A stretch of DNA of 64,000 bases from Candidatus Omnitrophota bacterium (GCA_030650425.1 JAUSED010000012.1:905-64904), one strand, 5' to 3'. Positions 2-14,647 are shown, counted from the stretch's first letter. Notes: a model not told the origin generated them from the letters alone. A program made the numbers and translations.

Positions 2-973
2 ATGATAGAGCCCTACAAGGGCAGAGTGTTCGACCCGGCATGTGGAAGCGGTGGTATGTTTATCATGAGCGAGAAATTTGTTGAAAGTCACAAAGGTAAA
101 ATTAGCGATATTTCAATTTATGGTCAAGAAAGTAATCAAACGACTTATCGTCTTTGTCGAATGAACTTGGCTATTCGTGGCATTGATGGATCGCAGGTCA
201 AATGGAATAATGAAGGGTCTTTCTTAAACGATGCGCATAAAGACCTCAAGGCAGATTTTATTCTTGCAAATCCTCCGTTTAATGACAGTGATTGGTCGGG
301 GCAATTACTTCAAACCGATCCACGTTGGCAATATGGCATGCCACCGGCAAGTAATGCTAACTTTGCGTGGCTTCAGCACATGATTTATCACCTTGCGCCA
401 AAGGGCGTGATGGCGTGCGTGCTTGCCAATGGCTCGCTCTCATCTCAAACAAACAACGAGGGTGATATTAGAAAAGCGTTCATTGAAAAGGATCTCGTGG
501 ACTGCATTGTCGCGCTACCTAAACAGCTTTTCTATAATACAGGCATTCCGGCATGTATTTGGTTTGTTTCCCGAAAGCGTATGGGCAATGGCGATCGTAA
601 GCGCACTGGCGAGATCCTTTTCGTTGACGCTTCGGAAGTTGGCTATATGGAAGACAGCACTCACAAGGCATTTAGCGAGGAAGATATTGTTAAAGTTTCC
701 AAAACCTACCATGAATGGCGAAGGTGCGACGGCAAATATGAAGACATCAAAGGTTTTTGTAAATCTGCCGATATAGGAGAAATCACTAAGCATAATTTTG
801 TCCTCACGCCCGGGCGCTATGTTGGCATGAAAGATGAGGTTGATGACGGCATTCCATTTGAAGAAAAGATTACTGGGCTCACAAAGAAACTTGCCGAGCA
901 GATGGTAGAAGAGAAAAAGTTGGATGAGGAAATAAAAAAACAACTGAAAAATGTTGGATTTAAATTGGGGTAA
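2..973 (+). CDS. hsdM: Type I restriction-modification N6-adenine DNA methyltransferase subunit HsdM (C-terminal portion; 5' end lies outside the window)
   Basis: SAM-binding motif I 'FDPACGSGGMF' and catalytic motif IV 'NPPF'. Directly followed by the hsdS and hsdR homologues. Confidence 0.9.
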   Translation: MIEPYKGRVFDPACGSGGMFIMSEKFVESHKGKISDISIYGQESNQTTYRLCRMNLAIRGIDGSQVKWNNEGSFLNDAHKDLKADFILANPPFNDSDWSGQLLQTDPRWQYGMPPASNANFAWLQHMIYHLAPKGVMACVLANGSLSSQTNNEGDIRKAFIEKDLVDCIVALPKQLFYNTGIPACIWFVSRKRMGNGDRKRTGEILFVDASEVGYMEDSTHKAFSEEDIVKVSKTYHEWRRCDGKYEDIKGFCKSADIGEITKHNFVLTPGRYVGMKDEVDDGIPFEEKITGLTKKLAEQMVEEKKLDEEIKKQLKNVGFKLG

Positions 974-975
974 CT

Positions 976-2214
976 ATGGCAGATCAAACTTCTACAATTC
1001 CAAAGGGCTGGAAAATGACGACACTAGGCGAGGTCATTTCTTCAGGGCTTATTTCTAATCACAATAATAAAAGATATCCTTTGGCAGGCAATGAAAGAGC
1101 GAGGCGGCAGGGCATGTTTCCTTACTATGGGGCGGCCAGCGCAATTGATTTTATAGATGAATACAAATATGACGGATTTTATTTATTAGTTGCAGAAGAT
1201 GGCACAGTTTATGATGGAAAATCTCCAATGCTTCAGTTAGTCAATGGAAAATTCTGGGTAAGCAATCACTCTCATGTATTACAAGGGAAAGATGAAATTA
1301 TTACAAAATTTTTGTCATATATTTTAAAAAATGTAAGCATTTCTCCATATATTACAGGAGCTGTTCAGCCTAAATTAACAAAAGAAAATCTTTACAGCAT
1401 TTCTTTTTTATTTCCGGAGAATGAAACTGAACAACGCGCCATCGCGGAGGTACTGTCGTCTGTGGATGATAAGATTGAGCTTTTGCGCGAGCAGAATAGA
1501 ATTCTTGAAGAAACCGCGCAGGTGATTTTTAAAGAGTGGTTTGTTAATTTTAATTTTCCTGGTGCAACCGGCAAAATGGTTGATTCCGAACTTGGCGGAA
1601 TTCCAGATAAGTGGAGAATGGGAAAATTAGGCGAAGAATTTAATATTACGATTGGAAGAACGCCTCCGAGGGAGGAGCGTGAATGGTTCTCCAGCATTCC
1701 AATTGGTAAGAAATGGATTTCAATAAAAGATATTGGAAATAGTGAAATGTATATATCTAACACGTCGGAATATTTAACAGATGAAGCAGTGGAGAAATTC
1801 AATATTCCAATAATTCCTGAAAATACAACTATTATGAGTTTTAAAATGACGGTTGGAAAGCTTGCAATTACAACAGAAAAAATGCTTTCAAATGAAGCGA
1901 TAGCTCATTTGAAAATAAAAGAAAATTCAAATCTTTCTACCGAATTTATTTATTCTTTTTTAAAGGGCTTAGATTTTAATAGCTTAGGAAGCACTTCTTC
2001 TATTGTGACAGCTATAAATTCAACAATGATAAAAGATATAGATATTTTTATTCCTGAAAAACAAATAATGCAAAAATTTAACAAAGTAATTCAGCCGATT
2101 TTTGCAAAATTAAAGAACAATAATGGCCAAATTCAAACTCTCTCCGCTCTCCGCGATGCGCTTTTGCCTAAACTGATGGAAGGTGAGGTGCGCGTGAAAG
2201 GTTTTAATAATTAA
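976..2214 (+). CDS. hsdS: Type I RM specificity subunit HsdS (two target-recognition domains)
   Basis: 412 aa, starting 3 nt after hsdM. Central conserved helical spacer 'LREQNRILEETAQ...FKEWFVNF' is typical of HsdS. Very AT-rich TRD-like halves. Confidence 0.8.
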   Translation: MADQTSTIPKGWKMTTLGEVISSGLISNHNNKRYPLAGNERARRQGMFPYYGAASAIDFIDEYKYDGFYLLVAEDGTVYDGKSPMLQLVNGKFWVSNHSHVLQGKDEIITKFLSYILKNVSISPYITGAVQPKLTKENLYSISFLFPENETEQRAIAEVLSSVDDKIELLREQNRILEETAQVIFKEWFVNFNFPGATGKMVDSELGGIPDKWRMGKLGEEFNITIGRTPPREEREWFSSIPIGKKWISIKDIGNSEMYISNTSEYLTDEAVEKFNIPIIPENTTIMSFKMTVGKLAITTEKMLSNEAIAHLKIKENSNLSTEFIYSFLKGLDFNSLGSTSSIVTAINSTMIKDIDIFIPEKQIMQKFNKVIQPIFAKLKNNNGQIQTLSALRDALLPKLMEGEVRVKGFNN

Positions 2215-2216
2215 GT

Positions 2217-3098
2217 ATGAGAAAAACGCAGTCATTCATAGATGAAAATATAAAATGGCAAGCGCTCGGCGACTATGTTTTGCGTATTGAAACGTATCGA
2301 GAAACATCCCCCGGACTTGTTATTGAAAATTGTAAGTCACTTATAGAATCAATTTTCAAAACTATTCTTGTTGAGGTTAACGCGAAGACTGAAGATGATT
2401 TAAAAAATATTGATATCAGCGGTCTGTATAAACAGGTAAAGAAAATTCTTTTTTTTGAGGAGAAAGGCTATTGCCATATCATTGGAAGCTTTTCCAATGC
2501 TATTGCGGAGTTTAGAAATAAGCTCGGAGAAACATCTCACGGGAAAGATATTTATACGCTAGAGAAAAATAGAAGCGCGCTATTTGGAGATGAAATTCAT
2601 TTTTTGCTCTCCACCACAGATAATATCGCTTTCTTTTTACTGAGCTATTACAAGAATTTATACCCTGTATATGCAGAGAAGAAGCGAGAGTTGGTTTATG
2701 GCGATTACAGTGAATTTAACGGATGGTTTGATGAAACGCAAGAACAAGTGGTTGTTGGAGGCGTGTCGTTATTGCCAAGTCGCGTGTTATTTGATGGAGA
2801 TATTGACGCATACAAGACCAGCTTGGGGGATTATTTAGGCAAGAATGATGTGGTTGAGAGGTTAAGAATAAGTCCGAACTTTGCATCAACCCATTCATTA
2901 ATAGGCGAATTGTCTCAATGTCAGAATTTTTCAAAAGAACAGGTCAGGCGATTGTTTGATGCGTTCTTCTTTAATAATCAAATCAGTTTGATAGCTACAG
3001 ATCAGGATGTGGCGGATTTTTTTACAACGCTTCTTCAGGAAAATGAAGCATTGCTTAGCGAAGGTGAATTAAATCAATTTAGGAGTCATTACAATTAA
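2217..3098 (+). CDS. Hypothetical protein embedded between hsdS and hsdR; possibly Abi/HEPN-like defence cargo
   Basis: 293-aa ORF tightly packed in the hsd operon (3-nt gaps on both sides). Positionally analogous to prrC or Abi genes embedded in Type I RM loci. Contains an R-x7-H segment 'RNKLGETSH', which is only a weak HEPN-like hint. Confidence 0.55.
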
Positions 3099-3100
3099 TC

Positions 3101-6100
3101 ATGAGCCATATTTACGAATCCACAGTTGAGGAATTTGTCATTGAGCTTTTGCAGGGTCAAGGGTTTGACTATTTATCTCCTGAGGCGCAGGAAATAGAAA
3201 GAAAAAGCCTTGCCGACGTAATTTTAATTTCCCGTCTTAAAAAAGCTATCAATATTCTTAACCCCACCATTCCGCAAGAAGCTCAAGAACAAGCTTTGCG
3301 TCAGGTTCTTAATTTGCCTAGCCAAAACCTTATTGATAATAATGAGGCTTTTCACAAAATGCTTACCGAAGGCATAGAGGTTGAGTATTTAGCAGAGCAT
3401 GGTGTGAAAGGTGACAAGGTCTGGTTGGTTGATTTTAATGATGTGCGAAATAATGATTTCATAGTATGCAATCAATTCACGGTTATCCAAAATAATATTA
3501 ATAAGCGGCCGGATATTGTTTTATTTGTTAATGGATTGCCATTGGTTGTTATAGAGCTTAAAAATCCAGCAGACGAAAATGCTACAGTTAAGAAGGCATA
3601 TACACAGATTCAGAATTATAAAAAGGCAATTTCAAGCTTGTTCTTTTATAACGAGATTTTAGTGGCGTCTGATGGATTGGATGCTAAAGCCGGGACGATT
3701 ACTTCAGAGTGGTCTCGGTTCTTGGCGTGGAAAACGGTCGATGGTGTAAAAGAGGATAAATCAACTGTTCCGCAAATTGAGACCCTTGTTAAGGGCATGC
3801 TCCGGCCGGATATTATCATTGATTTAATTAAACAATTTGTTGTTTACGAAAAGACCAGAAAAGAAGATGTAAGCACAGGGATTATAAGAATTGAGACTGC
3901 CAAAAAGGTCGCCGCATATCATCAATATTATGCCGTAGCTAAGGCTGTCGTTTCGACAAAAGACGCCGTAAAAGACGCGGGGAATCGAAAGGCTGGCGTT
4001 GTCTGGCATACTCAGGGAAGCGGCAAATCTCTTTCGATGGTTTTTTATACCGGCAAGGTTGTTCTGGAACTTGATAATCCAACGGTGGTTGTTCTTACAG
4101 ATAGAAATGATTTAGATAACCAATTGTTTGATACTTTTGCCGGGTGTAAGCAGTTATTAAGGCAGGATCCGGTTCAAGCAGAGAGTCAGGAACATTTAAA
4201 GGAACTGCTAAAAACTGCAGGGGGAGGAATAATATTTACTACTATACAAAAATTCTTTCCGGATAATGGCGAGCTGGTTTTTGATCTTTTGTCTGATAGA
4301 AAGAACATAGTTGTGATTGCTGATGAAGCGCATCGTAGTCAGTACGGATTTAGTGCAAAAACTACGGTTAAAAACGGCGAGGCATTTACGTCGTATGGGT
4401 TTGCGAAATACGTACGAGATGCATTGCCGCATGCTTCCTTTATTGGCTTTACTGGTACGCCGATTGAGAAGGAAGACGCTTCAACTTTGGCAGTATTTGG
4501 GAATTACATTGATATTTACGACATTGAGCAAGCTGTTGCTGACGGTGCGACTGTAAGGATTTATTATGAGTCACGCCTAGCAAAAGTTCATCTGAAACCA
4601 GAAGAAAAAGAAAAGCTTGATGCTGAGGTCGAGTCTGTTACTGAAGGGGAGGAATCGACTGCTAAAGAGAAGGCAAAAGCCAGATGGACACAGCTTGAGG
4701 CAATCGTTGGGCATCGGGATCGTGTGAGGATAATTGCAAAGGATATTATCGATCATTTCGAAAAACGGCAGGAAGCTTTTGAAGGCAAGGCATTGATTGT
4801 AGCAATGAGCAGGCGCATAGCAGTCGAGCTTTATGCAGAGATAGTTGCCTTGCGGCCCGCATGGCATAGTGAGGATAAACACAAAGGCGTTGTTAAAGTT
4901 GTTATGACATCGAGCTCAAGCGATCCTGAAAGCTGGCAGTTGCATAGCACGTCCAAGGATGACCGTAAGGCTATTGGAGACCGGTTTAAGGATCCCGATG
5001 ATGGATTAAAACTCGTTATAGTCCGGGATATGTGGCTTACGGGATTCGATGCACCATGCCTTCACACTATGTATGTTGATAAACCGATGCGTGGGCATAA
5101 CCTCATGCAAGCAATCGCTCGAGTTAACCGTGTATTTAAAGATAAGCCCGGCGGCTTAGTTGTCGACTACATTGGAATTGCTTCTGATTTGAAGAAAGCA
5201 TTGGCGACTTATACAGAAAGCGGTGGAAAAGGCGAGCCAATGCTTGATCAGAATGATGCGGTTGCGACTATGCTTGAGAAATACGAGATAGTCGTTCAGT
5301 TGTTTAGTGGTTTTGATTACAAGCGGTATTTTACTGCTGATACTAAAGGGAAGATGACGATTATTCTTGAAGCGCAGGAATATATTTTAGGTTTGGACGA
5401 TGGAAAAAATAGATTTACTAAGCAAGTTATATTGTTATCTAAGGCGTTTGCGTTATCAGTTCCGCATCTTGATGCTTTACGAATAAAGGATGAGCTGGGA
5501 TTCTTCCAAGCGGTAAAGGCCCGATTGACTAAATTTGAACCAACGGGTATGGGGAAGAGTGATGAAGACATAGAAACTGCTATCCGTCAGATTGTGGATC
5601 AAGCAGTTGTTGCCGAGGGTGTTATTGATATTTTTGATGCGGCTGGGATAAAGAGGCCGGATATTTCAATACTTTCGGAAGAATTTTTGGCGGAAGTCCG
5701 AGGAATGCAGAGGAAAAATCTTGCTATAGAGCTTCTCAAGAAACTTCTTAATGATGAATTGCGGATGCGCTTAAAGAAAAATCTTGTTCAGAGCCGCAAA
5801 TTGTCGGAGATGCTTGAGCAGGCTATTAGAAAATATCAAAACAACCTTCTTACAACGGCGCAGGTTATAGAAGAGCTCATCAAAATCGCAAAAGACATTA
5901 AGGAGTCAGATCAACGTGCTGAAGGTTTAGGGTTATCGGATGATGAGCTTGCGTTTTATGACGCTTTAGCAAATAACGACAGCGCGCGGGATGTTTTAGG
6001 AGATAAGACGCTTAAAGAGTTGGCAATCGTGTTGGTAGATAGGGTTAAGGCAAATGTTTCAATTGACTGGACACTAAAAGAAAGCGCGCAGGCTAAGCTG

Positions 6101-6226
6101 AGAACAATAGTCAAGAGGTTGCTTAGAAAATATGGGTATCCACCCGATAAGCAAATGTTAGCGACCGAAACTATCTTAAAACAAACAGAGCTTTTGTGTG
6201 ATGAATGGGTGGAAGCAAAGAAATAA
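3101..6226 (+). CDS. hsdR: Type I RM restriction subunit HsdR (SF2 helicase/endonuclease)
   Basis: 1041 aa. Walker A '[11 protein letters not shown]', DEAH box 'IADEAHRSQ', and the typical HsdR C-terminal helical domain. Confidence 0.9.
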
Positions 6227-6273
6227 TTATTGGTATCGACAAAGAAGGAAACAGTAATAATTGATGGTAAATC

Positions 6274-6951
6274 ATGGATGAAAAATATAAAGAATTATTT
6301 GAGTTATCGCTGAAAGTTTTAGATGAAGAACAGCAACGAACGAACAGGCTGGACGAAAAAGCTTCCAAGTATTTTAGCGTTTTAACTTTCTTGATTGGTA
6401 TTTATGGTGTTTTTTGTTCCCGCGTCCTATCGGAATGCATCCCATTTAAAGGCTGGATGGACGTTAGTCTAATCGGCTTGGGGCTTATTAACCTTTTGGG
6501 ACTAATTGCCGCTTGGTTTTTATGCTTCGCGGTTTTTCGGCAACACGTCATTGTCAAGATTCCATTGAATGACGAAATGATTAGGTTCTTTAACGATAAT
6601 GAGATGGTCGATGTCCATTACACATTGGCAAGGGCAAATAAAGACGCGCTTATCGAGAATCGGAGCATTACCGACAAAAAATCTTATTTGTTAGTGTGGA
6701 CGTATAAAATACTTTCATGGGTATTTGTTTTGATGGTTGTTATGATGTTTGTTTTTGGGATAAAAATATGGTCTACAAAAAACCATTCTAAGAGCGGAGG
6801 TGTTGTGATGACTGAGGAAAATAAATCTAAAGAGAAGCCGAAGGAGGATCTCAAGCCGCCGACTTACGACCGTATTACGGAAGGCTATGATCCGTCGAAG
6901 ACAAAGAAGATCGAGAAAGGCGTTGTTGAAAAAGATAAGGAAAAAAAGTAA
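6274..6951 (+). CDS. Small membrane protein of unknown function (about 3 TM helices, highly charged K/E-rich C-terminal tail)
   Basis: Hydrophobic segments 'FSVLTFLIGIYGVFC', 'VSLIGLGLINLLGLIAAWFLCFAVF' and 'LLVWTYKILSWVFVLMVVMMFVFGI'. Lies between hsdR and the SIR2 cassette. Confidence 0.55.
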   Translation: MDEKYKELFELSLKVLDEEQQRTNRLDEKASKYFSVLTFLIGIYGVFCSRVLSECIPFKGWMDVSLIGLGLINLLGLIAAWFLCFAVFRQHVIVKIPLNDEMIRFFNDNEMVDVHYTLARANKDALIENRSITDKKSYLLVWTYKILSWVFVLMVVMMFVFGIKIWSTKNHSKSGGVVMTEENKSKEKPKEDLKPPTYDRITEGYDPSKTKKIEKGVVEKDKEKK

Positions 6952-6978
6952 TCGAGATCTGTTCACTAAAGAACAACT

Positions 6979-7152
6979 ATGCCTGATGATCTTTTTGATG
7001 AGTTCATGGAATACGATTTCACGATGGGATCGGATGTCGTGAAATGCCCGCATTGCGGGGCCGACGTGCCATGTAGTTTGTTTTTCGATGATGAGGCTGA
7101 GTGCCCGAAGTGCGGAAAGAAGTTCCGGAAGGACGAGCATAAAGATACTTGA
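6979..7152 (+). CDS. Small zinc-ribbon protein (57 aa); absent from the ORF track because it is under 60 aa
   Basis: Manual translation gives MPDDLFDEFMEYDFTMGSDVVKCPHCGADVPCSLFFDDEAECPKCGKKFRKDEHKDT, with two C-x2-C pairs 17 residues apart. It ends 27 nt before the SIR2 gene. No strong SD. Confidence 0.45.
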   Translation: MPDDLFDEFMEYDFTMGSDVVKCPHCGADVPCSLFFDDEAECPKCGKKFRKDEHKDT

Positions 7153-7178
7153 TTTACGTGGATACAGGAGTAGTTTAA

Positions 7179-8099
7179 ATGAGCATAGAACTAGTTCCAG
7201 ATCTTAAGAAATTGCCTCATATTTATGGAGCGCATAAAGATGAAAAGTTAGTTATCTTTGTGGGTGCAGGAATATCAGCTCTTTGGGGATGTAAACGATG
7301 GAAGGATATGGCAACCGCGCTGATAGATTCTTGCTATGAACGAGGCAGTATAGACTATTGGTCACGCGAAACATTATTAACAAAGTATTCTAGCGCACCA
7401 AGGAAATTAATTACTATTGCCAAGAATATTCTCAATGAAAACTATTTGGGGGAATTGAAAAAAACACTTCAGCTAGCACATGAGCGAAAGGCTAAATTGC
7501 CCGATTTGTTTAATAACCTATTTTCGCTCAAGGCAATTTACATTACAACCAATATTGATGATAATTTCTCGAGTTTATTTGATAAAGGCAATGTTCACTT
7601 TGACCCAACCAAATTTTCAATAGCTATACTTAAACCTAAAAATATTATTCACCTGCATGGGGTTATTCATAATCCAGAAAGTCTGGTTATGACTGTGGAT
7701 GAGTATATTGACCGTTATCAGAAGGATGGTTTTAGGGAATTTTTGGAATCGGCATTCTTCGATGAAAAGTACTGCTTCCTTTTTATTGGGTACGGTGTCG
7801 ATGAGATGGAAATCATTGATTTTATGATTCAAAAATATAGCAAGGGAGTCAAATCCTTACGAGGGTTTCTGAATCGCTTTTATATTTTGTTGCCCTTCTT
7901 CCATAATGAAGAGCCGTTATTCAAATATGAACAGCTATATTTTGATCAGATAAATATGTCAGTTATACCCTATTCAATAAATGCTAAAGGCTACGATCAA
8001 TTAGATGAAGTATTGTCATCATGGCGGAAGGCATTTGAGGAATACGGCAAGGGCGATGAATTTTATGGGTTTAACCAAATTATTGAGAAGAATTTATGA
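7179..8099 (+). CDS. SIR2-family (sirtuin-like, SIR2_2/ThsA-type) protein; predicted NAD+-consuming effector
   Basis: Rossmann motif 'VIFVGAGISALWG', 'YITTNIDDNF' (cf. TQNID/TTNYD) and catalytic 'IIHLHGV'. No Zn-binding Cys module. SD 'AGGAG' 8 nt upstream. Its stop overlaps the start of the next gene (ATGA). Confidence 0.75.
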   Translation: MSIELVPDLKKLPHIYGAHKDEKLVIFVGAGISALWGCKRWKDMATALIDSCYERGSIDYWSRETLLTKYSSAPRKLITIAKNILNENYLGELKKTLQLAHERKAKLPDLFNNLFSLKAIYITTNIDDNFSSLFDKGNVHFDPTKFSIAILKPKNIIHLHGVIHNPESLVMTVDEYIDRYQKDGFREFLESAFFDEKYCFLFIGYGVDEMEIIDFMIQKYSKGVKSLRGFLNRFYILLPFFHNEEPLFKYEQLYFDQINMSVIPYSINAKGYDQLDEVLSSWRKAFEEYGKGDEFYGFNQIIEKNL

Positions 8100-11000
8100 G
8101 CCAGCTTAATACAGAAGAACAGCAAGTTCTTTATTTAATTAAAACCGATGCCGATCAAGCGAGGTATTTCTTTGCTCGGGTTAAATCATTGAAGTGGTTT
8201 TATCCTTTAAAGGATCAAGGATATTTTAGCCCGGAGAGCATTCCTTATGATTCGGAAGGACATGCGCTATTTTGGAATATTTTGAATTATTTTGAACGCG
8301 TTTCCGAGCAAGTAGCCCAGAATCCCCAATATGGCAAGGAGTTGATTGAAATCATTGAGAGTATTGTTCAATTTTCGCTTAATAAGAAGCGGGTTGACAA
8401 TTACCACATCGGGTGGTATTGCGTAAAAATCTTAAATAATCTACCTGCGGCGGTTATTAAAGATAACCTGACAGTCAATAAATTTCAGACCTGGCTTTTG
8501 GTATGGACAGATCATGGTTTAGGGAGCGATTTGACGATTAGTGATATTGGTGAAAAGCTTTTGCCGAAGTTTTTGCATGATGACTTTGGGCCTAATTATT
8601 TATATGCCGAAACAATTATAAACGTAATTACTGCAATCAAGGCTAGTGGAAAACCAGACACCTTTACAAAGCGAGACGATGCCATCATGGCTTGGCAGAC
8701 TTATTGGATTCTAGATGCTTTTAGGAAGCATGGTCAACTAATCGGTCAAAAAAGTTCTCTTAGTATTGTTTTTGAAATAGCAGAGAAGCTAAGCAATGCG
8801 TTGGAATATAAGCAAAAGGATCATTACACCGATTTAGAGATAGGAGATGCTATTTATCGCATTAGGGTTGCCAGAATCTTTGCGGATGGTCTGAAGCCTC
8901 GAGAGATTAAATTCAAGAACGATGAATATGAATGTGTAATTAGGCAATTCTCAAAAGAACAACTTGCAGGGGTTGATCGCCAGAATGATTTTTGGGCGCT
9001 TCATAATCTTGAACCGCAGATTGAATGCGGAAATTTTACATTTACTGCCTTAACGAAAGATTCGTTTGTCGCCGAAATAAGAAAGAATTTACCGACAGGT
9101 ATTAGCTGGCAAGGTGCAGACAAATTTGAGCAAAAGATCTTAAATATTCATGAAGGATTATATTCAGATTATTCACATATATGGTGCCGGACATTAAAGA
9201 GTGGGCCTGAGCATGGAGATGGTGCTGAAGATGTTTTGACTGTGATTTTGAGGGATATTTTACTTGCTAAGTGTGAAATAAATCGCGAAGCGGGCAAACA
9301 AATTTTAAGCTCCTTTTTAAACGATACTAAATATCAATTTCCCATATTCCGGCGTTTTGTACTTCTATGTATTGATAGATTCTGGACTGACTATTTTGAG
9401 CTTTTAGACAAACTGATTGAAGTTATCCCAACCATTCTTGAAGAGTCAGATCTTGAGGTAGAGATGCAAGACGTTATTCATAATCACAATTCCGCTTTTA
9501 GTCCTGTATTAAAGGACAGGTTGAAGGTTCTTATTGATAATGTTCCAGAATATTATATGAGCAAGGGGGATGAAAAACTTGTAGCTTATTGGAAATATAA
9601 ATGGTTATCGCCCTTGCGCGAAAATCCTGATTTCTCTTTTCTATATGAAGAAGCGAAACAAAAAGCCGAGCCTAAAGACGGCAAGCCATACGAGCCGGAA
9701 CGTTCAGCGTTTAAAGGTGGCTTTGTAAGTCATAAGTCACCAATTTCAAAGGAGGATATACTCAAAAAACCTGTTGCTGAAATAGTTAAATATTTGGCTG
9801 ATTTCAAAGGCGCTGATTTCTGGCATGGTGCTTTTGAAGGTGATCCGGATAGGGAAGGACTCGGGAGTGTTTTACAGGCTGTTGTAAAAGACGATCCGAA
9901 GAAATTTACTGACGAGTTTGACGCATTCATAAATGTCGATTATTTTTACCTTCAAGGAATGTTTCGAGGTATAAAAGACGCATGGAATGCCGGGACAGAT
10001 ATTGATTGGAAAAATATTTTAGATTTTAGCATTAAATATTTAAACAGAGGTAAAGATGCTATAATTGCCGAGGCTCTTAAAGCCCAAGGGGAGGACAGTG
10101 GTCAAGGACGGTATATATGGATTGTAGAGGCTATCGTTGAGTTGGTTGGCGATGGATCCAAGGATGATACAAAAGCATTTTCTCAGGAGTATTTTGACAA
10201 GGTTGAACAGATATTCGACCTAATACTTCCGTTGCTTAAAGGGGAAAAGCAGCCGGATACGCAAAGAGATGCTTTAACCTATGCATTAAATACTACTCTT
10301 GGCCGGACAATTATGGCGTATATGTCTTTTTCGTTGAGAGTTGCAAGGGCAACACAGAAAAAGAAAGAGAACTGGGGCCGGGATAAATTTGAGAGATTCC
10401 TTCCCATCGGTATAGATGGATATATTTGGCTTGGGTGCTATCTGCCACAAATGAAATACTTGGATAACGGTTATACAATAGAAAAAATCAATTCTTTTGC
10501 TCAAAAGGATTCTAGTGATTTCGAGTGGCAGATGTTTATGGAGGGATATCTGACTGGGGCTCGGGTATGTAAAGATTTATATACTTTAATGAGAGCGAAT
10601 TATATAAAGGCTCTCCAGAGTACGGTATTTAAAGGAAGGGCTGACGAGAGACTGGTTGAGCATATTTGCATTGGGTATCTTCAGCTTGGCGAAGCATTGA
10701 TGCAAAACAATGAAGAAGGCAAACCGAGTTTATTCTGGAAAATGCTTAACGAGGCTGACACAGAGGATAAACGAAGTCGATGGGAAGATGTCACTGGTTT
10801 CTTCTGGTCAATATCTGGTAGGACATTAAAAAAAGAAGAAAAAGACAAACAAGAAGAGCCATCTGAAGATTTTAAAAAGAAGATATTAGCCTTCTGGGAA
10901 TGGACAGTTAACGAACAGGAATTTGTAAAGGGGAAATTGGGTGACGCGTATTCTTCATTTCTATGCCGTATGGTAGAATTGACAATTTGGCTTGATGGGA

Positions 11001-11326
11001 TAGATGATACTACGGAAAAATGGATTATGCTTTCAGCTCCTTTTATCGAAATAGAACATCGCTCATCTTTTTTTATTGAATATTTAACTAAATTTGATGA
11101 TGATGAAAGTGTTCAGCGGATAGGCAAGATATTCATAAAAGTTTTGGAAACCGCCACGCCTAGCTTCAGGCAAGAAGAAATTCAGTTAATCGTTGGAAGA
11201 CTCTATAAGCTTGGAGAAAAGAACCCGGGAGTTAAATCAGATGCAGATAATATATGTAATACTTATGGGAGGCGAGGCGCACATTTCTTAAAGGAATTGT
11301 TTTACAAGTATAGTAAGGAACAATAA
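8096..11326 (+). CDS. Large (1076 aa) predicted all-alpha/helical-repeat protein, translationally coupled to the SIR2 gene; function unknown
   Basis: Long uninterrupted ORF with no Walker, nuclease or TM motif recognisable by eye. Helix-rich composition, possibly HEAT/ARM-like. ATGA overlap with the upstream SIR2 gene. Confidence 0.7.
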   Translation: MSQLNTEEQQVLYLIKTDADQARYFFARVKSLKWFYPLKDQGYFSPESIPYDSEGHALFWNILNYFERVSEQVAQNPQYGKELIEIIESIVQFSLNKKRVDNYHIGWYCVKILNNLPAAVIKDNLTVNKFQTWLLVWTDHGLGSDLTISDIGEKLLPKFLHDDFGPNYLYAETIINVITAIKASGKPDTFTKRDDAIMAWQTYWILDAFRKHGQLIGQKSSLSIVFEIAEKLSNALEYKQKDHYTDLEIGDAIYRIRVARIFADGLKPREIKFKNDEYECVIRQFSKEQLAGVDRQNDFWALHNLEPQIECGNFTFTALTKDSFVAEIRKNLPTGISWQGADKFEQKILNIHEGLYSDYSHIWCRTLKSGPEHGDGAEDVLTVILRDILLAKCEINREAGKQILSSFLNDTKYQFPIFRRFVLLCIDRFWTDYFELLDKLIEVIPTILEESDLEVEMQDVIHNHNSAFSPVLKDRLKVLIDNVPEYYMSKGDEKLVAYWKYKWLSPLRENPDFSFLYEEAKQKAEPKDGKPYEPERSAFKGGFVSHKSPISKEDILKKPVAEIVKYLADFKGADFWHGAFEGDPDREGLGSVLQAVVKDDPKKFTDEFDAFINVDYFYLQGMFRGIKDAWNAGTDIDWKNILDFSIKYLNRGKDAIIAEALKAQGEDSGQGRYIWIVEAIVELVGDGSKDDTKAFSQEYFDKVEQIFDLILPLLKGEKQPDTQRDALTYALNTTLGRTIMAYMSFSLRVARATQKKKENWGRDKFERFLPIGIDGYIWLGCYLPQMKYLDNGYTIEKINSFAQKDSSDFEWQMFMEGYLTGARVCKDLYTLMRANYIKALQSTVFKGRADERLVEHICIGYLQLGEALMQNNEEGKPSLFWKMLNEADTEDKRSRWEDVTGFFWSISGRTLKKEEKDKQEEPSEDFKKKILAFWEWTVNEQEFVKGKLGDAYSSFLCRMVELTIWLDGIDDTTEKWIMLSAPFIEIEHRSSFFIEYLTKFDDDESVQRIGKIFIKVLETATPSFRQEEIQLIVGRLYKLGEKNPGVKSDADNICNTYGRRGAHFLKELFYKYSKEQ

Positions 11327-11342
11327 TAAAATAGGGAGTTCT

Positions 11343-11588
11343 ATGGGCGGCAGAAGCACATCAGACAATTTTAAGAGGCGATTCGGGGATCCCGAGCGAA
11401 TCGAAATAAAGTTTGAAGCTAGAAAATTATCGTCTTCGGAGGAAGCGCGTCGAAATGAAGCGATGGCAACGGCGCATGTTGATGTCTTGAGAAATCTTCT
11501 GGGGCGCGAACCAACTCACGATGAGATTATTTGCAAAGTAGATATCTCGAAGAAATTGAGAAAGAAATATCATGAAGAAAGTCATTAG
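11343..11588 (+). CDS. Small hypothetical protein (81 aa)
   Basis: SD 'AGGGAG' 5-10 nt upstream of the ATG. Starts 16 nt after the 1076-aa gene and overlaps the next gene by 17 nt. Confidence 0.5.
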   Translation: MGGRSTSDNFKRRFGDPERIEIKFEARKLSSSEEARRNEAMATAHVDVLRNLLGREPTHDEIICKVDISKKLRKKYHEESH

Positions 11589-12417
11589 CCGGTATTTATC
11601 TCCGGAAACATACGAAGCCGTAAAGAGGGATTTTGGGTTCTTGGTCAATAAGATCGAGCAATCCGGGTATGAATATGATTTGCAGATACGCGATAACTAC
11701 ATGAACCTTTATTATAAAGGCAACAGCCTCGGGAAAATATCCTACCGTAAGTCAGAGGATCTATACGAGATCAGGATCCATCGTAAGTTTGCGGAGGGCA
11801 TCGGGTCGGAGATTAATAGGTTTAAGAATTCGCAGGAGAAGGAGTATTTATTATTTACGCTTGCAAGCAAAGAACTTCACCCTTTTTTTAGTACACGAAA
11901 TTTATTATTGATGGGGCAGAGGGTTAAAAAGGTGGGGTTTCAGGAAGAGATCGTTTTTGAGCAGATGCTTATGGCCGATAATGCCAAGAGAGATGATTTA
12001 ATAATAATAGATCGGCAGGTTGTAGATCGGAATAGTTCCACCAAGATGGATCTTCTCGCGCTCAAAAAGAAGGATGAGGGTAAGTATCAATTCTGTATTT
12101 TGGAGGTTAAGCTGGGCAACAATCCTGAGTTAAAAGGAGAGGTTTTTACACAATTGAGTGGCTATATTGCTCGTATCGAGAATAATTTTCAGGCATACAA
12201 GGAATGTTATGAAAAGAATGTTATGCAGAAGCAGAGTATTGGTTTGTTGCCAGCGGAGATTAGCATCACTATTGTCGAAGATGTCCTTGGGTTTGTAGTA
12301 GTCGGAGGATATTCAGGGCTGGGAGAGCAAAGCATAAAAGAACTTAAGGGCAAGCATCTTGACGACATAAAAGTATTACATATGAAAAATGTGATTGACC
12401 TTAGCAGGGCTAAATAA
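11572..12417 (+). CDS. Hypothetical protein with a PD-(D/E)xK-like nuclease motif
   Basis: 281 aa. '...IIIDRQVVDR...MDLLALKKK...FCILEVKLG' fits a D ... E-x-K restriction-endonuclease-fold core. Overlaps the downstream gene (taATG). Confidence 0.5.
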   Translation: MKKVISRYLSPETYEAVKRDFGFLVNKIEQSGYEYDLQIRDNYMNLYYKGNSLGKISYRKSEDLYEIRIHRKFAEGIGSEINRFKNSQEKEYLLFTLASKELHPFFSTRNLLLMGQRVKKVGFQEEIVFEQMLMADNAKRDDLIIIDRQVVDRNSSTKMDLLALKKKDEGKYQFCILEVKLGNNPELKGEVFTQLSGYIARIENNFQAYKECYEKNVMQKQSIGLLPAEISITIVEDVLGFVVVGGYSGLGEQSIKELKGKHLDDIKVLHMKNVIDLSRAK

Positions 12418-13718
12418 TGAACATAGTAATTCACCGTGGCACAAAAGAAATCGGTGGCACATGCGTCGAGTTGACGACCAATAAGTTTCGGATAATCGTC
12501 GACCTTGGCATTCCTCTGGTATCAGATAGAAAAGACCAGCCCTTCGACAGCAAGGTACTGGAGGGGAAGTCAGTCAAACAGCTATTAGGCTTAGGCGTGC
12601 TACCTGCCGTCACTGGACTGTATGTCGGGGATGAGCCGCGTGTTGACGCTGTCTTAATTTCTCATTCGCATCTCGATCATTATGGTTTGCTTCGGTATGT
12701 CCATCCGGATATTCCAATATATCTTAGCGAGGGGGCAAGGGAACTGATCAAAGTTTCCGATATCTTTACCCCTTACCGGACAGGCGACTTGACCGTTCGC
12801 ATTGTGGGTAATGGCAAAAAGTTCAAGGTGGGCGGCTTTGAGATTACCGCGTTTCTTGTCGACCATTCGGCTTTTGACGCCTTGGCGTTTATGATCGAGG
12901 CCGACAAGGCAAGGGTGTTTTATTCCGGTGATTTCAGAGGCCATGGGCGAAAAAGCGCGCTTTTTACAAGAATTATTGAATCTCCACCGAAGGACATAGA
13001 TTGCCTATTGATGGAAGGCTCAATGCTTGGCAGAGACGAGCAGATTTATAAGGACGAGATAGCGGTTGAGAAAGGCATTAAGGATGTTTTGGAGAATAAG
13101 AGCAATATCGCCTTTCTTTTTGCTTCCTCGCAGAATATTGATCGATTGGTTTCCGCATATAAAGCATGCCGCAAGACAGGCACGACCTTTGTGATTGATT
13201 TGTATACGGCATTCATTTTACACAGACTTGAGGCTAATACTAAAAGTCTTCCTCAGTTTGACTGGCCGAATGTCCGCGTAAAGTTTTTTAAGTTTCATGC
13301 GGATAAGATTGCAGAGGCTGGGCAGGAGAAGCTTTTGTACTTATTTAACAAGCAAAAAATCGAGATGGAAGAAATTGATCGAACTAAAGAAAAGGTTCTT
13401 ATGATTTTAAGAGACAATTCTTTGTTTCCCAGAGTCATCGGCCATATTCATCCGATTAAGGGCGCCCAGATTATATATTCTATGTGGGATGGATATCTTA
13501 CCGATAAATTTCAGGGATATTGTCGGGAGAAGGGTATTGCGATTAAACAGATCCATACCAGCGGGCATGCGATTCCGAAGGATCTCAAAGCATTCGCGAA
13601 AGCCTTAAATCCCAAAGTCCTCGTGCCGATACACACATTTCATTCTGAACGGTATGGAGAAATGTTTGATAATGTGAAAGTTTTAGAGGATGGGGAGCTG
13701 TGGGAGGTGCCGGTATGA
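12417..13718 (+). CDS. Metallo-beta-lactamase-fold hydrolase (probable nuclease)
   Basis: 433 aa with the 'ISHSHLDHYG' HxHxDH motif and an N-terminal beta-lactamase-fold pattern 'GGTCVEL...IIVDLG'. 1-nt overlap with the upstream gene. Confidence 0.8.
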   Translation: MNIVIHRGTKEIGGTCVELTTNKFRIIVDLGIPLVSDRKDQPFDSKVLEGKSVKQLLGLGVLPAVTGLYVGDEPRVDAVLISHSHLDHYGLLRYVHPDIPIYLSEGARELIKVSDIFTPYRTGDLTVRIVGNGKKFKVGGFEITAFLVDHSAFDALAFMIEADKARVFYSGDFRGHGRKSALFTRIIESPPKDIDCLLMEGSMLGRDEQIYKDEIAVEKGIKDVLENKSNIAFLFASSQNIDRLVSAYKACRKTGTTFVIDLYTAFILHRLEANTKSLPQFDWPNVRVKFFKFHADKIAEAGQEKLLYLFNKQKIEMEEIDRTKEKVLMILRDNSLFPRVIGHIHPIKGAQIIYSMWDGYLTDKFQGYCREKGIAIKQIHTSGHAIPKDLKAFAKALNPKVLVPIHTFHSERYGEMFDNVKVLEDGELWEVPV

Positions 13719-14248
13719 GGCGGCGTGATATTTTCTCTAAAGATGACGGTAAGAATGATATTAAAAAGCGATTGAATGCTTGGATCGAAAAACAGAAATT
13801 GACTGATGAAGAAAAAAATAAGATGTTGGAGGCTGTTCTTAACCAGCGGAAGAATATTTATCTTGTCAGGGAGACCGCGAATAAAGCAGGGCTTGGGTTG
13901 ATAAGATTTATTAATAACAAGGCATTGGAGCTGTATTTTGATATTTTAAACAAGGATAAGAGCGTTGGGTATATTTCGAAGGGTTGGGATGATCCCGGGT
14001 TTAGAGTGGGAGAGTATTTCGAAATGGACAAAAAAGACCCCGCCTTTAAAGAAAAGTTTTATAAGGTACATCAGCTTTGTTCGGGAAATTTGATTAGTGT
14101 AGGTGTGTCCGAAAAATTGCCGGGTAAAGTTGGAGTAAGTTTAGAGATTGGTATTTACGCGGATGGGTTTACCGAGAAGGTCTTGAAGAGTGCTGTTGAT
14201 ACAATGGAATCAACGATGTGTAAGATTAAGTCCACGATCGATATGTGA
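13715..14248 (+). CDS. Hypothetical protein (~177 aa), last gene of the coupled operon
   Basis: Its ATG at 13715 overlaps the MBL gene's TGA (ATGA). The ORF track begins at an upstream GTG (13700). Confidence 0.5.
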   Translation: MRRRDIFSKDDGKNDIKKRLNAWIEKQKLTDEEKNKMLEAVLNQRKNIYLVRETANKAGLGLIRFINNKALELYFDILNKDKSVGYISKGWDDPGFRVGEYFEMDKKDPAFKEKFYKVHQLCSGNLISVGVSEKLPGKVGVSLEIGIYADGFTEKVLKSAVDTMESTMCKIKSTIDM

Positions 14249-14647
14249 TCGTTGTTCTTCGGTGTTCTCAAGATGGGCAATCTTAAGCAGGGTTTTGCCG
14301 GAGAATCGTTTGATGAGGTTTTGGTCTTCAGTGGTTTTCAGGCTGGATATAAGGTCAGCTGGGATCTTATCGAGAATGGTCATAAGCTGGGATACTCGGG
14401 CCCGGGTGACGCCGAAATGGTTACCAGCGGCAGTTTGTGTTCTTTGAGGGTTTTCTACTAGATATTCCCGAACTTGGATGGCCATGGCTACGATATTCTT
14501 GTAGACTGGTTTGGGTTTTTGGGGTAAACTAGGCAATGGATCGTACAAACTGATGGATGTGCCCTTTCCGCGTCTGCGGTACATCTTCACAAGTATATGT
14601 ATTTCCTTGCACTTAGAGAGGCGTCGCTTGTAGTGTTCTGAGTCCAT
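14210..14647 (-). CDS. Orphan ParB/KorB-like HTH protein (no N-terminal ParB/Srx domain); possible mobile-element remnant at the island boundary
   Basis: 'NHFGVTRARVSQLMTILDKIP' and 'GKTLLKIAHLENTEEQ' resemble the ParB/Spo0J HTH and the following helix. Convergent with the upstream operon, overlapping it by 39 nt. Confidence 0.45.
   Translation of the reverse strand: MDSEHYKRRLSKCKEIHILVKMYRRRGKGTSISLYDPLPSLPQKPKPVYKNIVAMAIQVREYLVENPQRTQTAAGNHFGVTRARVSQLMTILDKIPADLISSLKTTEDQNLIKRFSGKTLLKIAHLENTEEQRSHIDRGLNLTHR

What the first reader, a model, noticed from the sequence alone, without database searches (positions are those of the whole stretch)
6979..11326. Candidate undescribed SIR2-based defence module: zinc-ribbon peptide + SIR2 + 1076-aa helical partner ('split DSR-like') directly downstream of a Type I RM
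The protein at 7179..8099 carries the sirtuin Rossmann/catalytic triad of motifs (GAGIS, TTNID, HLHG) and lacks the Zn module. That is the SIR2_2 flavour used as an NAD+-depleting effector in Thoeris ThsA, DSR1/2, SIR2-HerA and SPARSA.

It is translationally coupled (ATGA overlap) to a 1076-aa helical protein with no ATPase or nuclease motif. That differs from the SIR2-HerA, ThsAB and pAgo pairings. It resembles DSR2 (SIR2 fused to a large helical sensor) split into two polypeptides.

An unannotated 57-aa C-x2-C...C-x2-C zinc-ribbon ORF sits 27 nt upstream.

The location, next to hsdR in an AT-rich island, fits defence-island logic.
Basis: partly seen in the sequence, partly recalled or inferred. 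Interest (0 to 1): 0.8.

Follow-up and report, generated by a model that had tools for sequence, protein, structure and literature searches.

The report
Two-gene (split) DSR1-type sirtuin defence system
The SIR2 gene and the 1076-residue helical gene are the two halves of the known anti-phage protein DSR1 encoded as separate, translationally coupled genes, sitting as a swappable cassette in a restriction-modification defence island, and the small zinc-ribbon gene is a widespread junction gene of such islands, not a part of this system.

Summary
The ORFs exist as described. 7179-8099 is a defence-type SIR2 with invariant catalytic N125 and H160. 8096-11326 is an alpha-solenoid with no enzymatic domain. 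Start and stop overlap as ATGA.

The pair is not an undescribed system. One PADLOC Dsr1 model matches SIR2 at its N-terminal part (E 3.6e-77) and the large protein at the remainder (E 1e-107). Both are collinear with single-chain relatives. It is therefore a split DSR1, not DSR2: no DSR2 match was found to the large protein.

The split is real. SIR2 homologues are all about 300 aa down to 44% identity. Of 128 full-length sensor representatives, 92 are stand-alone and 8 SIR2-fused. Others carry TIR, PIN or an unknown roughly 150-aa domain.

Likely mechanism, inferred: the sensor holds SIR2 inactive, a phage protein activates it, and NAD+ is depleted.

The pair often follows a Type I RM operon, co-oriented (8 of 18 distinct loci, plus this window).

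Zn57 is a real, strongly conserved protein, but absent from every other pair locus and frameshifted in the closest relative. It precedes at least 48 different cargo gene clusters. With orf81 it marks module boundaries.

New variant of a known kind; moderate interest.

The parts
7179..8099 (+). SIR2 effector subunit (306 aa). It corresponds to the N-terminal SIR2 domain of DSR1. Predicted NADase with catalytic N125 and H160.
   Evidence: Pfam SIR2_2 E 4e-14. PADLOC Dsr1 PDLC04166 E 3.6e-77, profile 6-283. GAG, TTN125xD127, H160-G161 and G204 are invariant in 21 split and fused relatives. AF2 pLDDT 89; Foldseek best matches are KomC, FAM118B, DSR2 SIR2 and ThsA, TMq 0.56-0.65. 36% identical to residues 17-290 of the fused P0273.
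8096..11326 (+). DSR1-type sensor subunit (1076 aa): an alpha-solenoid with a beta-rich insert at residues 242-317. It corresponds to the non-SIR2 part of DSR1.
   Evidence: PADLOC Dsr1 PDLC04166 E 1e-107, best stretch 331-1073 against profile 519-1225. Collinear BLASTP with fused P0248 (residues 2-246 to 317-569 and 357-1069 to 568-1262, E 3e-120) and with P0273 (residues 4-1075 to 314-1363). AF2 pLDDT 86.8. The profile search found 3005 representatives.
8096..8099 (+). ATGA stop/start overlap that couples translation of SIR2 and the sensor.
   Evidence: Sequence. The same 4-nt overlap occurs in L001, L002, L010, L014, L020, L030 and L036.
6979..7152 (+). Zn57: a conserved 57-aa zinc-ribbon protein with an acidic-aromatic N-terminus (DDLFDEFMEYDF). 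It is a junction or leader gene of defence-island modules, not a specific component of the SIR2 system.
   Evidence: 81 homologous clusters at 53-92% identity, all but the weakest at 60% or more. Four Cys invariant. Codon-position identity 0.89/0.945/0.54. 83 loci with variable neighbours on both sides. Frameshifted in L030. Homology breakpoints between loci fall at its edges.
6274..6951 (+). TM225: a 225-aa membrane protein (context). It belongs to the upstream module together with Zn57.
   Evidence: No Pfam family reaches its cutoff; weak PADLOC PycTM hit, E 0.0012. Window 6271-7152 is 82% identical to L056, where hsdR-like, TM225 and Zn56 precede a different cargo.
2..6226 (+). Type I restriction-modification operon (context): hsdM (cut by the window edge), hsdS 976-2214, embedded orf293 2217-3098 and hsdR 3101-6226.
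   Evidence: PADLOC MTase_I E 6e-131, Specificity_I E 3e-99, REase_I 1222 bits; orf293 hits PDC-S34 at E 1.3e-12.
11343..11588 (+). orf81: a conserved 81-aa protein (context). It marks the 3' boundary of the cassette slot and leads the next module.
   Evidence: Homologues found in 9 Zn57 loci at positions +3 to +5. Window 11342-13714 is 76.7% identical to L089, starting at the orf81 start.
11572..13718 (+). The next module (context): orf281 plus a 433-aa metallo-beta-lactamase/beta-CASP (RNase J-like) protein.
   Evidence: Pfam Lactamase_B_2 E 5e-17 and RMMBL; NCBIfam RNase J family E 4e-22, below its cutoff. Conserved as a block with L089. A homologue of the 433-aa protein lies downstream of the sensor in L003.

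Best explanation
Genes 7179-8099 and 8096-11326 form a two-subunit version of the anti-phage protein DSR1 (defence-associated sirtuin 1).

The 306-aa SIR2 protein is the effector. The 1076-aa alpha-solenoid is the sensor.

Proposed mechanism:
1. The overlapping stop and start codons couple translation, so the two proteins are made together.
2. They associate as the corresponding domains do in single-chain DSR1, and the sensor keeps SIR2 inactive.
3. During infection a phage structural protein binds the solenoid. The model here is the major capsid protein, reported for E. coli Dsr1.
4. Binding releases or assembles the SIR2 active site (N125, H160).
5. SIR2 hydrolyses NAD+, which stops phage replication.

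Shown here: the SIR2 fold and its invariant catalytic residues; collinear homology of both genes to DSR1; conservation of the split and of the coupling; fused relatives that join at the same boundary; exchange of the effector against a near-constant sensor; and mobility of the pair as a cassette in a defence-island slot.

Inferred, not shown: physical complex formation, NADase activity, the identity of the trigger, and the outcome for the cell.
For: Homology to DSR1:
- One PADLOC Dsr1 profile (PDLC04166, 1227 positions) matches SIR2 at positions 6-283 (E 3.6e-77) and the large protein at 519-1225 (E 1e-107).
- The single-chain relative P0248 matches that profile end to end (E 2e-267). It is collinear with the large protein, E 3e-120.
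- The fused relative P0273 aligns to SIR2 over its residues 17-290 and to the large protein from residue 314, so the fusion point equals the split point.

The split is conserved:
- All 95 SIR2 homologue clusters are stand-alone, and those at 44-96% identity are about 300 aa. Many share contigs with sensor homologues.
- The pair is adjacent with a 4-nt overlap in L001, L002, L010, L014, L020, L030 and L036.
- Of the best 150 representatives, 92 are stand-alone, 8 are SIR2-fused and 28 carry other N-terminal domains.

Effector modularity:
- Sensors 70-73% identical to this one pair with SIR2 proteins only 24-27% identical (L004, L005, L009).
- Other sensors are fused to TIR, PIN_12 or an unknown domain.

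SIR2 chemistry:
- N125 and H160 are invariant.
- The closest structures are defence SIR2 NADases.

Context and mobility:
- The pair lies directly after Type I RM genes in L001, L002, L008, L009, L014, L020, L034 and L036.
- Window 6985-11316 is 96.4% identical to L030, with different flanks.
- L089 carries a PHP-ATPase system in the same slot between Zn57 and orf81.

Published function of the family:
- DSR1 depletes NAD+ on infection (bioRxiv 10.1101/2021.12.14.472415).
- E. coli Dsr1 is triggered by a phage major capsid protein through its sensor (PMC12803255).
Against: - No experiment exists on this subfamily.
- It is only distantly related to characterised Dsr1. NCBIfam NF041818 gives 12.7 bits for SIR2 and no hit for the sensor. 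The fused relatives P0248 and P0315 reach 78 and 35 bits against an equivalog cutoff of 1400. Trigger and outcome may therefore differ.
- No complex prediction could be run.
- The sensor has a roughly 110-aa insert (a beta-rich region at 242-317) that is absent from P0248. Its role is unknown.
- The recurrent linkage to Type I RM could mean a dependence on RM that the stand-alone DSR1 model does not include.
Confidence: 0.75

Rival explanations
1. A three-component system: the Zn57 zinc-ribbon peptide is an integral subunit or regulator of the SIR2-sensor module.
For: - Zn57 lies 26 nt upstream on the same strand.
- The 96.4% homology block shared with L030 starts at the Zn57 start codon, so the three ORFs moved together at least once.
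- Zn57 is a real protein under strong purifying selection.
- Zn57 homologues also precede other SIR2 cargos: SIR2-HerA in L068, SIR2 plus PDC-M54A in L066, and a 239-aa protein plus a DSR1-type sensor in L080 and L081.
Against: - tblastn found Zn57 near the pair only in L030 and L031. It is absent from the other 17 distinct sensor loci with the upstream gene visible. In L014 and L020 hsdS overlaps SIR2 directly.
- In L030 an 11-nt deletion removes the first CxxC and shifts the frame, while SIR2 and the sensor stay 98% and 97% identical.
- Across 83 Zn57 loci the +1 gene falls into 48 different clusters. Only 2 loci carry a DSR1-type sensor.
Confidence: 0.1
2. An RM-coupled guard. The pair functionally depends on, or monitors, the adjacent Type I RM enzyme. 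The model is the PrrC anticodon nuclease, which is held latent by EcoprrI and fires when a phage inhibits restriction (established knowledge of that system, not tested here).
For: - The pair or its fused-sensor relatives lie directly downstream of Type I RM genes, co-oriented, in 10 of 18 other distinct loci and in the window.
- The gaps are very short: a 4-nt overlap with hsdS in L014 and L020, and gaps of 2, 8, 24, 39 and 41 nt in L009, L034, L002, L036 and L001.
- The gene order hsdR-hsdM-hsdS-SIR2-sensor recurs, often with RadC in front.
Against: - The pair also occurs with no RM gene identified next to it (L007, L010, L012), and after a Dcm/Vsr unit (L032).
- Fused-sensor relatives occur with no adjacent Type I RM (L038-L040).
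- Single-chain DSR1 defends when cloned alone.
- RM operons are known to attract unrelated embedded systems, for example DarTG2 between hsdS and hsdR (PMC12255303).
- In the window two unrelated genes, TM225 and Zn57, separate hsdR from SIR2.
Confidence: 0.12
3. A broken gene: a single-chain DSR1 split by a frameshift or an assembly error, hence a pseudogene.
For: Fused relatives exist (P0273, P0291, P0315, P0248), and the two ORFs overlap out of frame.
Against: - The split is found in dozens of independent clusters at 44-96% identity. All have intact ORFs of about 303-306 aa and 1066-1100 aa, and the same ATGA junction.
- Stand-alone sensors outnumber SIR2-fused ones 92 to 8 among the best representatives.
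- An independent assembly, L031, is identical to the window over this region.
Confidence: 0.02

Closest known systems
DSR1 (defence-associated sirtuin 1; Gao et al. 2020; PADLOC Dsr1 subfamily model PDLC04166)
   Same: - The SIR2 effector is homologous and collinear.
- The large alpha-helical sensor region is also homologous and collinear.
- The catalytic N and H are conserved.
- The context is a defence island.
- The expected mechanism is NAD+ depletion after a phage protein is sensed.
   Different: - It is encoded as two overlapping genes instead of one polypeptide.
- It is far below the NCBIfam Dsr1 equivalog threshold.
- The sensor carries an extra beta-rich insert.
- In near relatives SIR2 is exchanged for other SIR2 subtypes, TIR, PIN or an unknown domain.
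- It is frequently placed directly after a Type I RM operon, co-oriented.
DSR2
   Same: The logic is an N-terminal SIR2 NADase plus a large alpha-solenoid that senses a phage structural protein. The SIR2 model superposes on the DSR2 SIR2 domain with TMq 0.59-0.65.
   Different: The helical part shows no detectable relation:
- No PADLOC Dsr2 hit.
- No PDB sequence hit with the family profile.
- No DSR2 among the best 50 Foldseek matches, which are importins, CAND1 and other generic HEAT/ARM proteins at TM 0.11-0.24.
Avs7 / Dsr1 shared sensor family (PMC12803255, 2026 preprint)
   Same: That preprint describes a sensor module combined with many different effectors and says split proteins were met in the survey. 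It reports a phage major capsid protein as the trigger of SeAvs7 and EcDsr1.
   Different: No STAND NTPase is present here. Whether this subfamily is in their set could not be checked because the supplements are not held. Homology to EcDsr1 is shown here only indirectly, through fused relatives that hit NF041818.
Two-gene SIR2 systems (SIR2-HerA, Thoeris ThsA/ThsB, SPARSA)
   Same: A SIR2 NADase effector is encoded next to a partner that controls it.
   Different: The partner here is not an ATPase, TIR or pAgo/APAZ protein. ThsA models match only the SIR2 core (E 2.6e-8) and not a SLOG domain.

Membership tests
DSR1 | SIR2 (SIR2_2-type) domain with the catalytic Asn and His | tested here: met
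   Pfam SIR2_2 E 4e-14. N125 and H160 are invariant in 21 relatives. The AF2 model matches defence SIR2 structures.
DSR1 | Large alpha-helical region homologous to the DSR1 sensor part | tested here: met
   PADLOC Dsr1 PDLC04166 E 1e-107 over profile 519-1225. Collinear with the full-length Dsr1-model protein P0248, E 3e-120.
DSR1 | SIR2 and sensor on one polypeptide (single-gene system) | tested here: not met
   There are two ORFs with an ATGA overlap. The split is conserved across homologues.
DSR1 | Equivalog of the characterised Dsr1 (NCBIfam NF041818, cutoff 1400 bits) | tested here: not met
   SIR2 scores 12.7 bits and the sensor gives no hit. The fused relatives P0248 and P0315 score 78 and 35 bits. 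The relationship is a distant subfamily.
DSR1 | NAD+ depletion and phage protection on infection; trigger is a phage structural protein | not testable with these tools
   Known for other DSR1 proteins only.
DSR2 | DSR2-type middle and C-terminal solenoid that binds the tail tube protein or DSAD1 | tested here: not met
   No Dsr2 model hit. No PDB sequence hit. No DSR2 chains among the best 50 Foldseek matches to the sensor model.
SIR2-HerA | HerA-type ATPase partner gene | tested here: not met
   The partner has no P-loop domain and no HerA hit. A true SIR2-HerA pair in L068 was recognised by the same search.
Thoeris | ThsA with a SLOG domain plus a ThsB TIR gene | tested here: not met
   ThsA models match only residues 20-219 of SIR2. 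No TIR gene is adjacent.
SPARSA | SIR2-APAZ protein plus a short pAgo | tested here: not met
   PADLOC and Pfam scans gave no pAgo or APAZ hit for any of the seven ORFs at 6274-13718.
Zinc-ribbon small proteins (Zn57 family) | Four invariant Cys in CxxC...CxxC, and protein-level selection | tested here: met
   C23, C26, C42 and C45 are invariant in 31 sequences. Codon-position identity is 0.89/0.945/0.54. PDB and Pfam matches are to generic zinc ribbons only.

The most novel reading that the evidence does not exclude
The two small conserved proteins that flank the cassette are Zn57 (6979-7152) and orf81 (11343-11588). They may form a previously unrecognised class of 'junction genes' that organise RM-anchored defence islands in uncultured bacteria (Omnitrophota and others).

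They sit co-oriented, at median gaps of 7 and 13.5 nt, between an upstream RM, BREX or Hma system and highly variable downstream defence cargos. Homology breakpoints between islands fall exactly at their edges.

They could act as shared regulators or adaptors that link downstream abortive-infection modules to the upstream system. They could also be the crossover points that let cassettes such as this split DSR1 be swapped. Zn57 is conserved at about 84% amino-acid identity with third codon positions only 54% identical, which argues for a protein function rather than a mere DNA site.
Probability: 0.35. Interest if true: 0.7.

Novelty: new variant of a known kind. Interest (0 to 1): 0.4.

Why it matters
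DSR1 is defined and searched for as a single gene, so two-gene forms can be missed or half-annotated. Here the stand-alone-sensor form is the majority among the closest representatives (92 stand-alone against 8 SIR2-fused).

The natural split also offers a convenient experimental handle. Sensor and effector can be expressed, mixed and swapped separately to ask how a DSR1-type solenoid controls a SIR2 NADase.

The near-constant sensor paired with very different effectors gives ready-made chimeras. These effectors include SIR2 proteins that share only 24-28% identity with this one, TIR, PIN and an unknown roughly 150-aa domain.

The recurrent placement directly after Type I RM operons, co-oriented, raises a testable question of functional coupling.

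The Zn57 and orf81 junction genes suggest that some defence islands have a defined slot architecture.

Tried and rejected
- The Foldseek library afdb50 was not available. No structure-level link to annotated Dsr1 or Avs7 models could be made.
- A PDB sequence search with the sensor profile found nothing.
- Foldseek of the sensor against the PDB gave only generic HEAT/ARM solenoids at TM 0.11-0.24. This is uninformative beyond 'alpha-solenoid, not DSR2-like'.
- Promoter and terminator scans over 6000-14500 gave no more sites than shuffled sequence.
- No tRNA was found in the window, so no integration-site clue.
- Pfam and NCBIfam gave no family for the sensor, and no DUF4020 hit.
- The supplements of the Avs7/Dsr1 preprint are not held.
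- A literature search for DUF4020 plus SIR2 returned nothing.
- Searches for a described zinc-ribbon junction gene found nothing pertinent.
- RptR, a 9-kDa repressor of an RM island, is a four-helix protein and not a zinc ribbon. orf81 gave only weak PDB hits (best E 0.0027, to a de novo designed protein), none to RptR.
- The IMG/VR scans found no relative of the sensor and only two close Zn57 homologues, plus two weak partial matches. The elements therefore do not look typically phage-borne.
- The frameshift/pseudogene reading was considered and rejected on conservation.
- The pair gave no hit to any PD-T7-2 model in the PADLOC scan. PD-T7-2 is another system reported to contain Sir2.

Full report
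**Observation**

The ORF map and translations confirm four co-oriented genes after a Type I RM operon:
- TM225 at 6274-6951.
- A 57-aa CxxC...CxxC protein (Zn57) at 6979-7152.
- A 306-aa protein at 7179-8099 with the motifs GAGIS, TTNID and HLHG.
- A 1076-aa protein at 8096-11326.

The SIR2 stop and the next start overlap as ATGA. PADLOC identifies hsdM, hsdS and hsdR upstream. The GC dip is small: 0.38-0.40 here against 0.37-0.47 window-wide.

**What the pair is**

The 306-aa protein matches Pfam SIR2_2 at E 4e-14. Its AF2 model has pLDDT 89. The best solved matches are defence sirtuins: KomC, FAM118B, the SIR2 domain of DSR2, and ThsA, at TMq 0.56-0.65. Across 21 split and fused relatives, GAG, TTN125xD127, H160-G161 and G204 are invariant.

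The 1076-aa protein has no Pfam or NCBIfam family. Its AF2 model has pLDDT 86.8. It is an alpha-solenoid with a beta-rich insert at 242-317.

The decisive result is from PADLOC. One Dsr1 model, PDLC04166 with 1227 positions, matches SIR2 at positions 6-283 (E 3.6e-77). The same model matches the large protein at 519-1225 (E 1e-107).

Single-chain relatives confirm this:
- P0248 (1266 aa) matches the same model end to end (E 2e-267). It is collinear with the large protein: residues 2-246 align to 317-569 and 357-1069 to 568-1262.
- P0273 (1366 aa) aligns to SIR2 over its residues 17-290 and to the large protein from residue 314.

The two window genes are therefore DSR1 cut exactly at the boundary between effector and sensor.

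The relation to characterised Dsr1 is distant. NCBIfam NF041818 scores 12.7 bits for SIR2 and nothing for the sensor. The fused relatives P0248 and P0315 score 78 and 35 bits against a cutoff of 1400.

There is no sign of DSR2 homology in the helical part.

**The split is genuine**

SIR2 homologues are stand-alone, and those at 44-96% identity are about 300 aa. Sensor homologues of 1066-1100 aa share contigs with them.

In genome and metagenome loci the two genes are adjacent. They show the same 4-nt overlap in L001, L002, L010, L014, L020, L030 and L036.

A profile search of 1.84 billion representatives found 3005 relatives. The best 150 divide as follows:

| Class | Count |
|---|---|
| Stand-alone sensors | 92 |
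| SIR2-fused | 8 |
| Other N-terminal domains | 28 |
| Fragments | 22 |

**Modularity**

Sensors 70-73% identical to the window protein are preceded by SIR2 proteins only 24-27% identical to the window SIR2 (L004, L005, L009), and the 51%-identical sensor of L012 by one at 27%. L007 and L008 carry a further SIR2-like type.

Other sensors carry fused domains instead:
- TIR in P0269.
- PIN_12 in P0353.
- A roughly 150-aa domain with no Pfam match in P0005, P0026, P0073 and P0118. These have no SIR2 gene nearby.

This fits a 2026 preprint. It reports that the Dsr1/Avs7 sensor is combined with many effectors, says adjacent sequences were analysed 'for split proteins', and identifies a phage major capsid protein as the trigger of E. 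coli Dsr1 (PMC12803255).

DSR1 was shown earlier to deplete NAD+ on infection (bioRxiv 10.1101/2021.12.14.472415).

**Context**

Distinct sensor loci with the upstream gene visible number 18 besides the window. L031 is counted as the same sequence as the window. The pairs L032/33, L034/35 and L036/37 are counted once each.

- The SIR2-sensor pair follows Type I RM genes directly and co-oriented in 8 loci: L001, L002, L008, L009, L014, L020, L034 and L036.
- A fused-sensor relative does the same in L003 and L006.
- The gaps are short. There is a 4-nt overlap with hsdS in L014 and L020. The gaps are 2, 8, 24, 39 and 41 nt in L009, L034, L002, L036 and L001.
- Other loci have a Dcm/Vsr unit, a type IIG enzyme, an SNF2 helicase, or no RM gene identified upstream.

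**The zinc ribbon**

Zn57 is not an orphan. It has 81 homologous clusters at 53-92% identity, all but the weakest at 60% or more. Four Cys are invariant, and the N-terminus is acidic and aromatic.

Over 65 unique genes the identity by codon position is 0.89, 0.945 and 0.54. This shows strong purifying selection on the protein.

Zn57 is not specific to this system:
- It was found next to a sensor gene only in L031 (identical to the window) and L030.
- In L030 an 11-nt deletion removes the first CxxC and shifts the frame. SIR2 and the sensor there remain 98% and 97% identical.

Across 83 Zn57 loci:
- Neighbours are co-oriented in 76 of 79 cases upstream and 80 of 82 downstream.
- Median gaps are 7 nt upstream and 13.5 nt downstream.
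- An RM, BREX or Hma gene lies within four genes upstream in 35 of the 45 loci that have at least 3 kb of upstream sequence.
- The downstream gene falls into 48 clusters.

Downstream cargos include Ppl-like PHP-ATPases, HEPN, PD-(D/E)XK plus Drt3a, SIR2-HerA, SIR2 plus PDC-M54A, and Vsr-Dcm.

**Mosaic structure**

DNA homology between loci breaks at the edges of Zn57. In the window:
- 6271-7152 (TM225 plus Zn57) matches L056 at 82%.
- 6985-11316 (Zn57 plus SIR2 plus sensor) matches L030 at 96.4%.
- 11342-13714 (orf81 plus orf281 plus the MBL-fold protein) matches L089 at 76.7%.

In L089 the slot between Zn57 and orf81 holds a PHP-ATPase system instead. orf81 is itself a conserved family, found after the variable cargo in nine Zn57 loci.

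The SIR2-sensor pair is thus a self-contained, exchangeable cassette in a defined slot.

**Verdict**

The finding is real, and the 'split DSR' intuition is right. The system belongs to the named DSR1 kind rather than being undescribed or DSR2-like, and the zinc ribbon is not one of its parts.

It is a new architectural variant of a known system, and in this clade the commoner one. The mechanism is inferred by homology.

The most unexpected element is the pair of conserved junction genes that flank the cassette.

Noticed in passing
window 6979-7152; loci L041-L124: Zn57 belongs to a widespread family of roughly 55-aa zinc-ribbon proteins. The family shows about 84% mean amino-acid identity while third codon positions are only 54% identical. 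It sits co-oriented at very short gaps between an upstream RM, BREX or Hma system and highly variable downstream defence cargos. Homology breakpoints between loci fall at its edges.
   Followed up: partly
window 11343-11588; L043, L045-L047, L049, L058, L062, L089, L105: orf81 (N-terminus MGGRSTSDNFKRRFGDPERI...) is a second conserved small-protein family. It lies at the 3' side of the variable cargo and at the head of the next module. It has no family or structure match beyond a weak sigma-28 region-like hit.
   Followed up: partly
window 11572-13718; L089 12947-15099; L003 8404-9264; L057 and L065 at +3/+4: orf281 plus a 433-aa metallo-beta-lactamase/beta-CASP (RNase J-like) protein recur as an overlapping gene pair in defence islands. 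orf281 has only weak PADLOC PDC-S18 and PDC-S11 hits. This may be a separate uncharacterised defence candidate.
   Followed up: partly
window 2217-3098: A 293-aa gene is embedded between hsdS and hsdR. It hits PADLOC candidate PDC-S34 (E 1.3e-12) and, weakly, AbiJ.
   Followed up: no
window 6274-6951; L056 7300-7977: TM225 is a membrane protein with predicted transmembrane segments and a Lys-rich tail. It has a weak PycTM hit (E 0.0012). It is conserved at 86% with L056, where it also lies between an hsdR-like gene and a Zn57 homologue, but with a different downstream cargo.
   Followed up: partly
proteins P0005, P0026, P0073, P0118 (loci L003, L006, L011, L013, L038-L040): DSR1-type sensors carry a fused N-terminal domain of about 150 aa in place of SIR2. 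The domain has conserved AREIDGGLRD and AHRxGxWK motifs and no Pfam match. It is a candidate new effector domain. TIR-fused (P0269) and PIN_12-fused (P0353) sensors also exist.
   Followed up: partly
window 8096-11326, residues 242-317 of the product: A beta-rich insert lies within a roughly 110-aa region of the solenoid that has no counterpart in the single-chain relative P0248. Its function is unknown.
   Followed up: no
L001 3038-3754, L004 737-1432, L006 2342-3016, L009 2784-3494, L036 1495-2256: A RadC-like gene recurs at the head of the hsdR-hsdM-hsdS-SIR2-sensor arrangement. In L004 it sits directly before SIR2 with no RM genes between them.
   Followed up: no
L013 8932-9459: A 175-aa protein with hydrophobic N-terminal segments and a C-terminal CxxC...CxxC motif lies directly upstream of a fused-domain sensor. 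It has no sequence similarity to Zn57, so this may be a coincidence.
   Followed up: no
L034-L037: The whole hsdRMS-SIR2-sensor block lies next to large serine recombinase or primase-polymerase genes and beside a radical-SAM (MiaB-like) gene. This suggests carriage on an integrative element.
   Followed up: no
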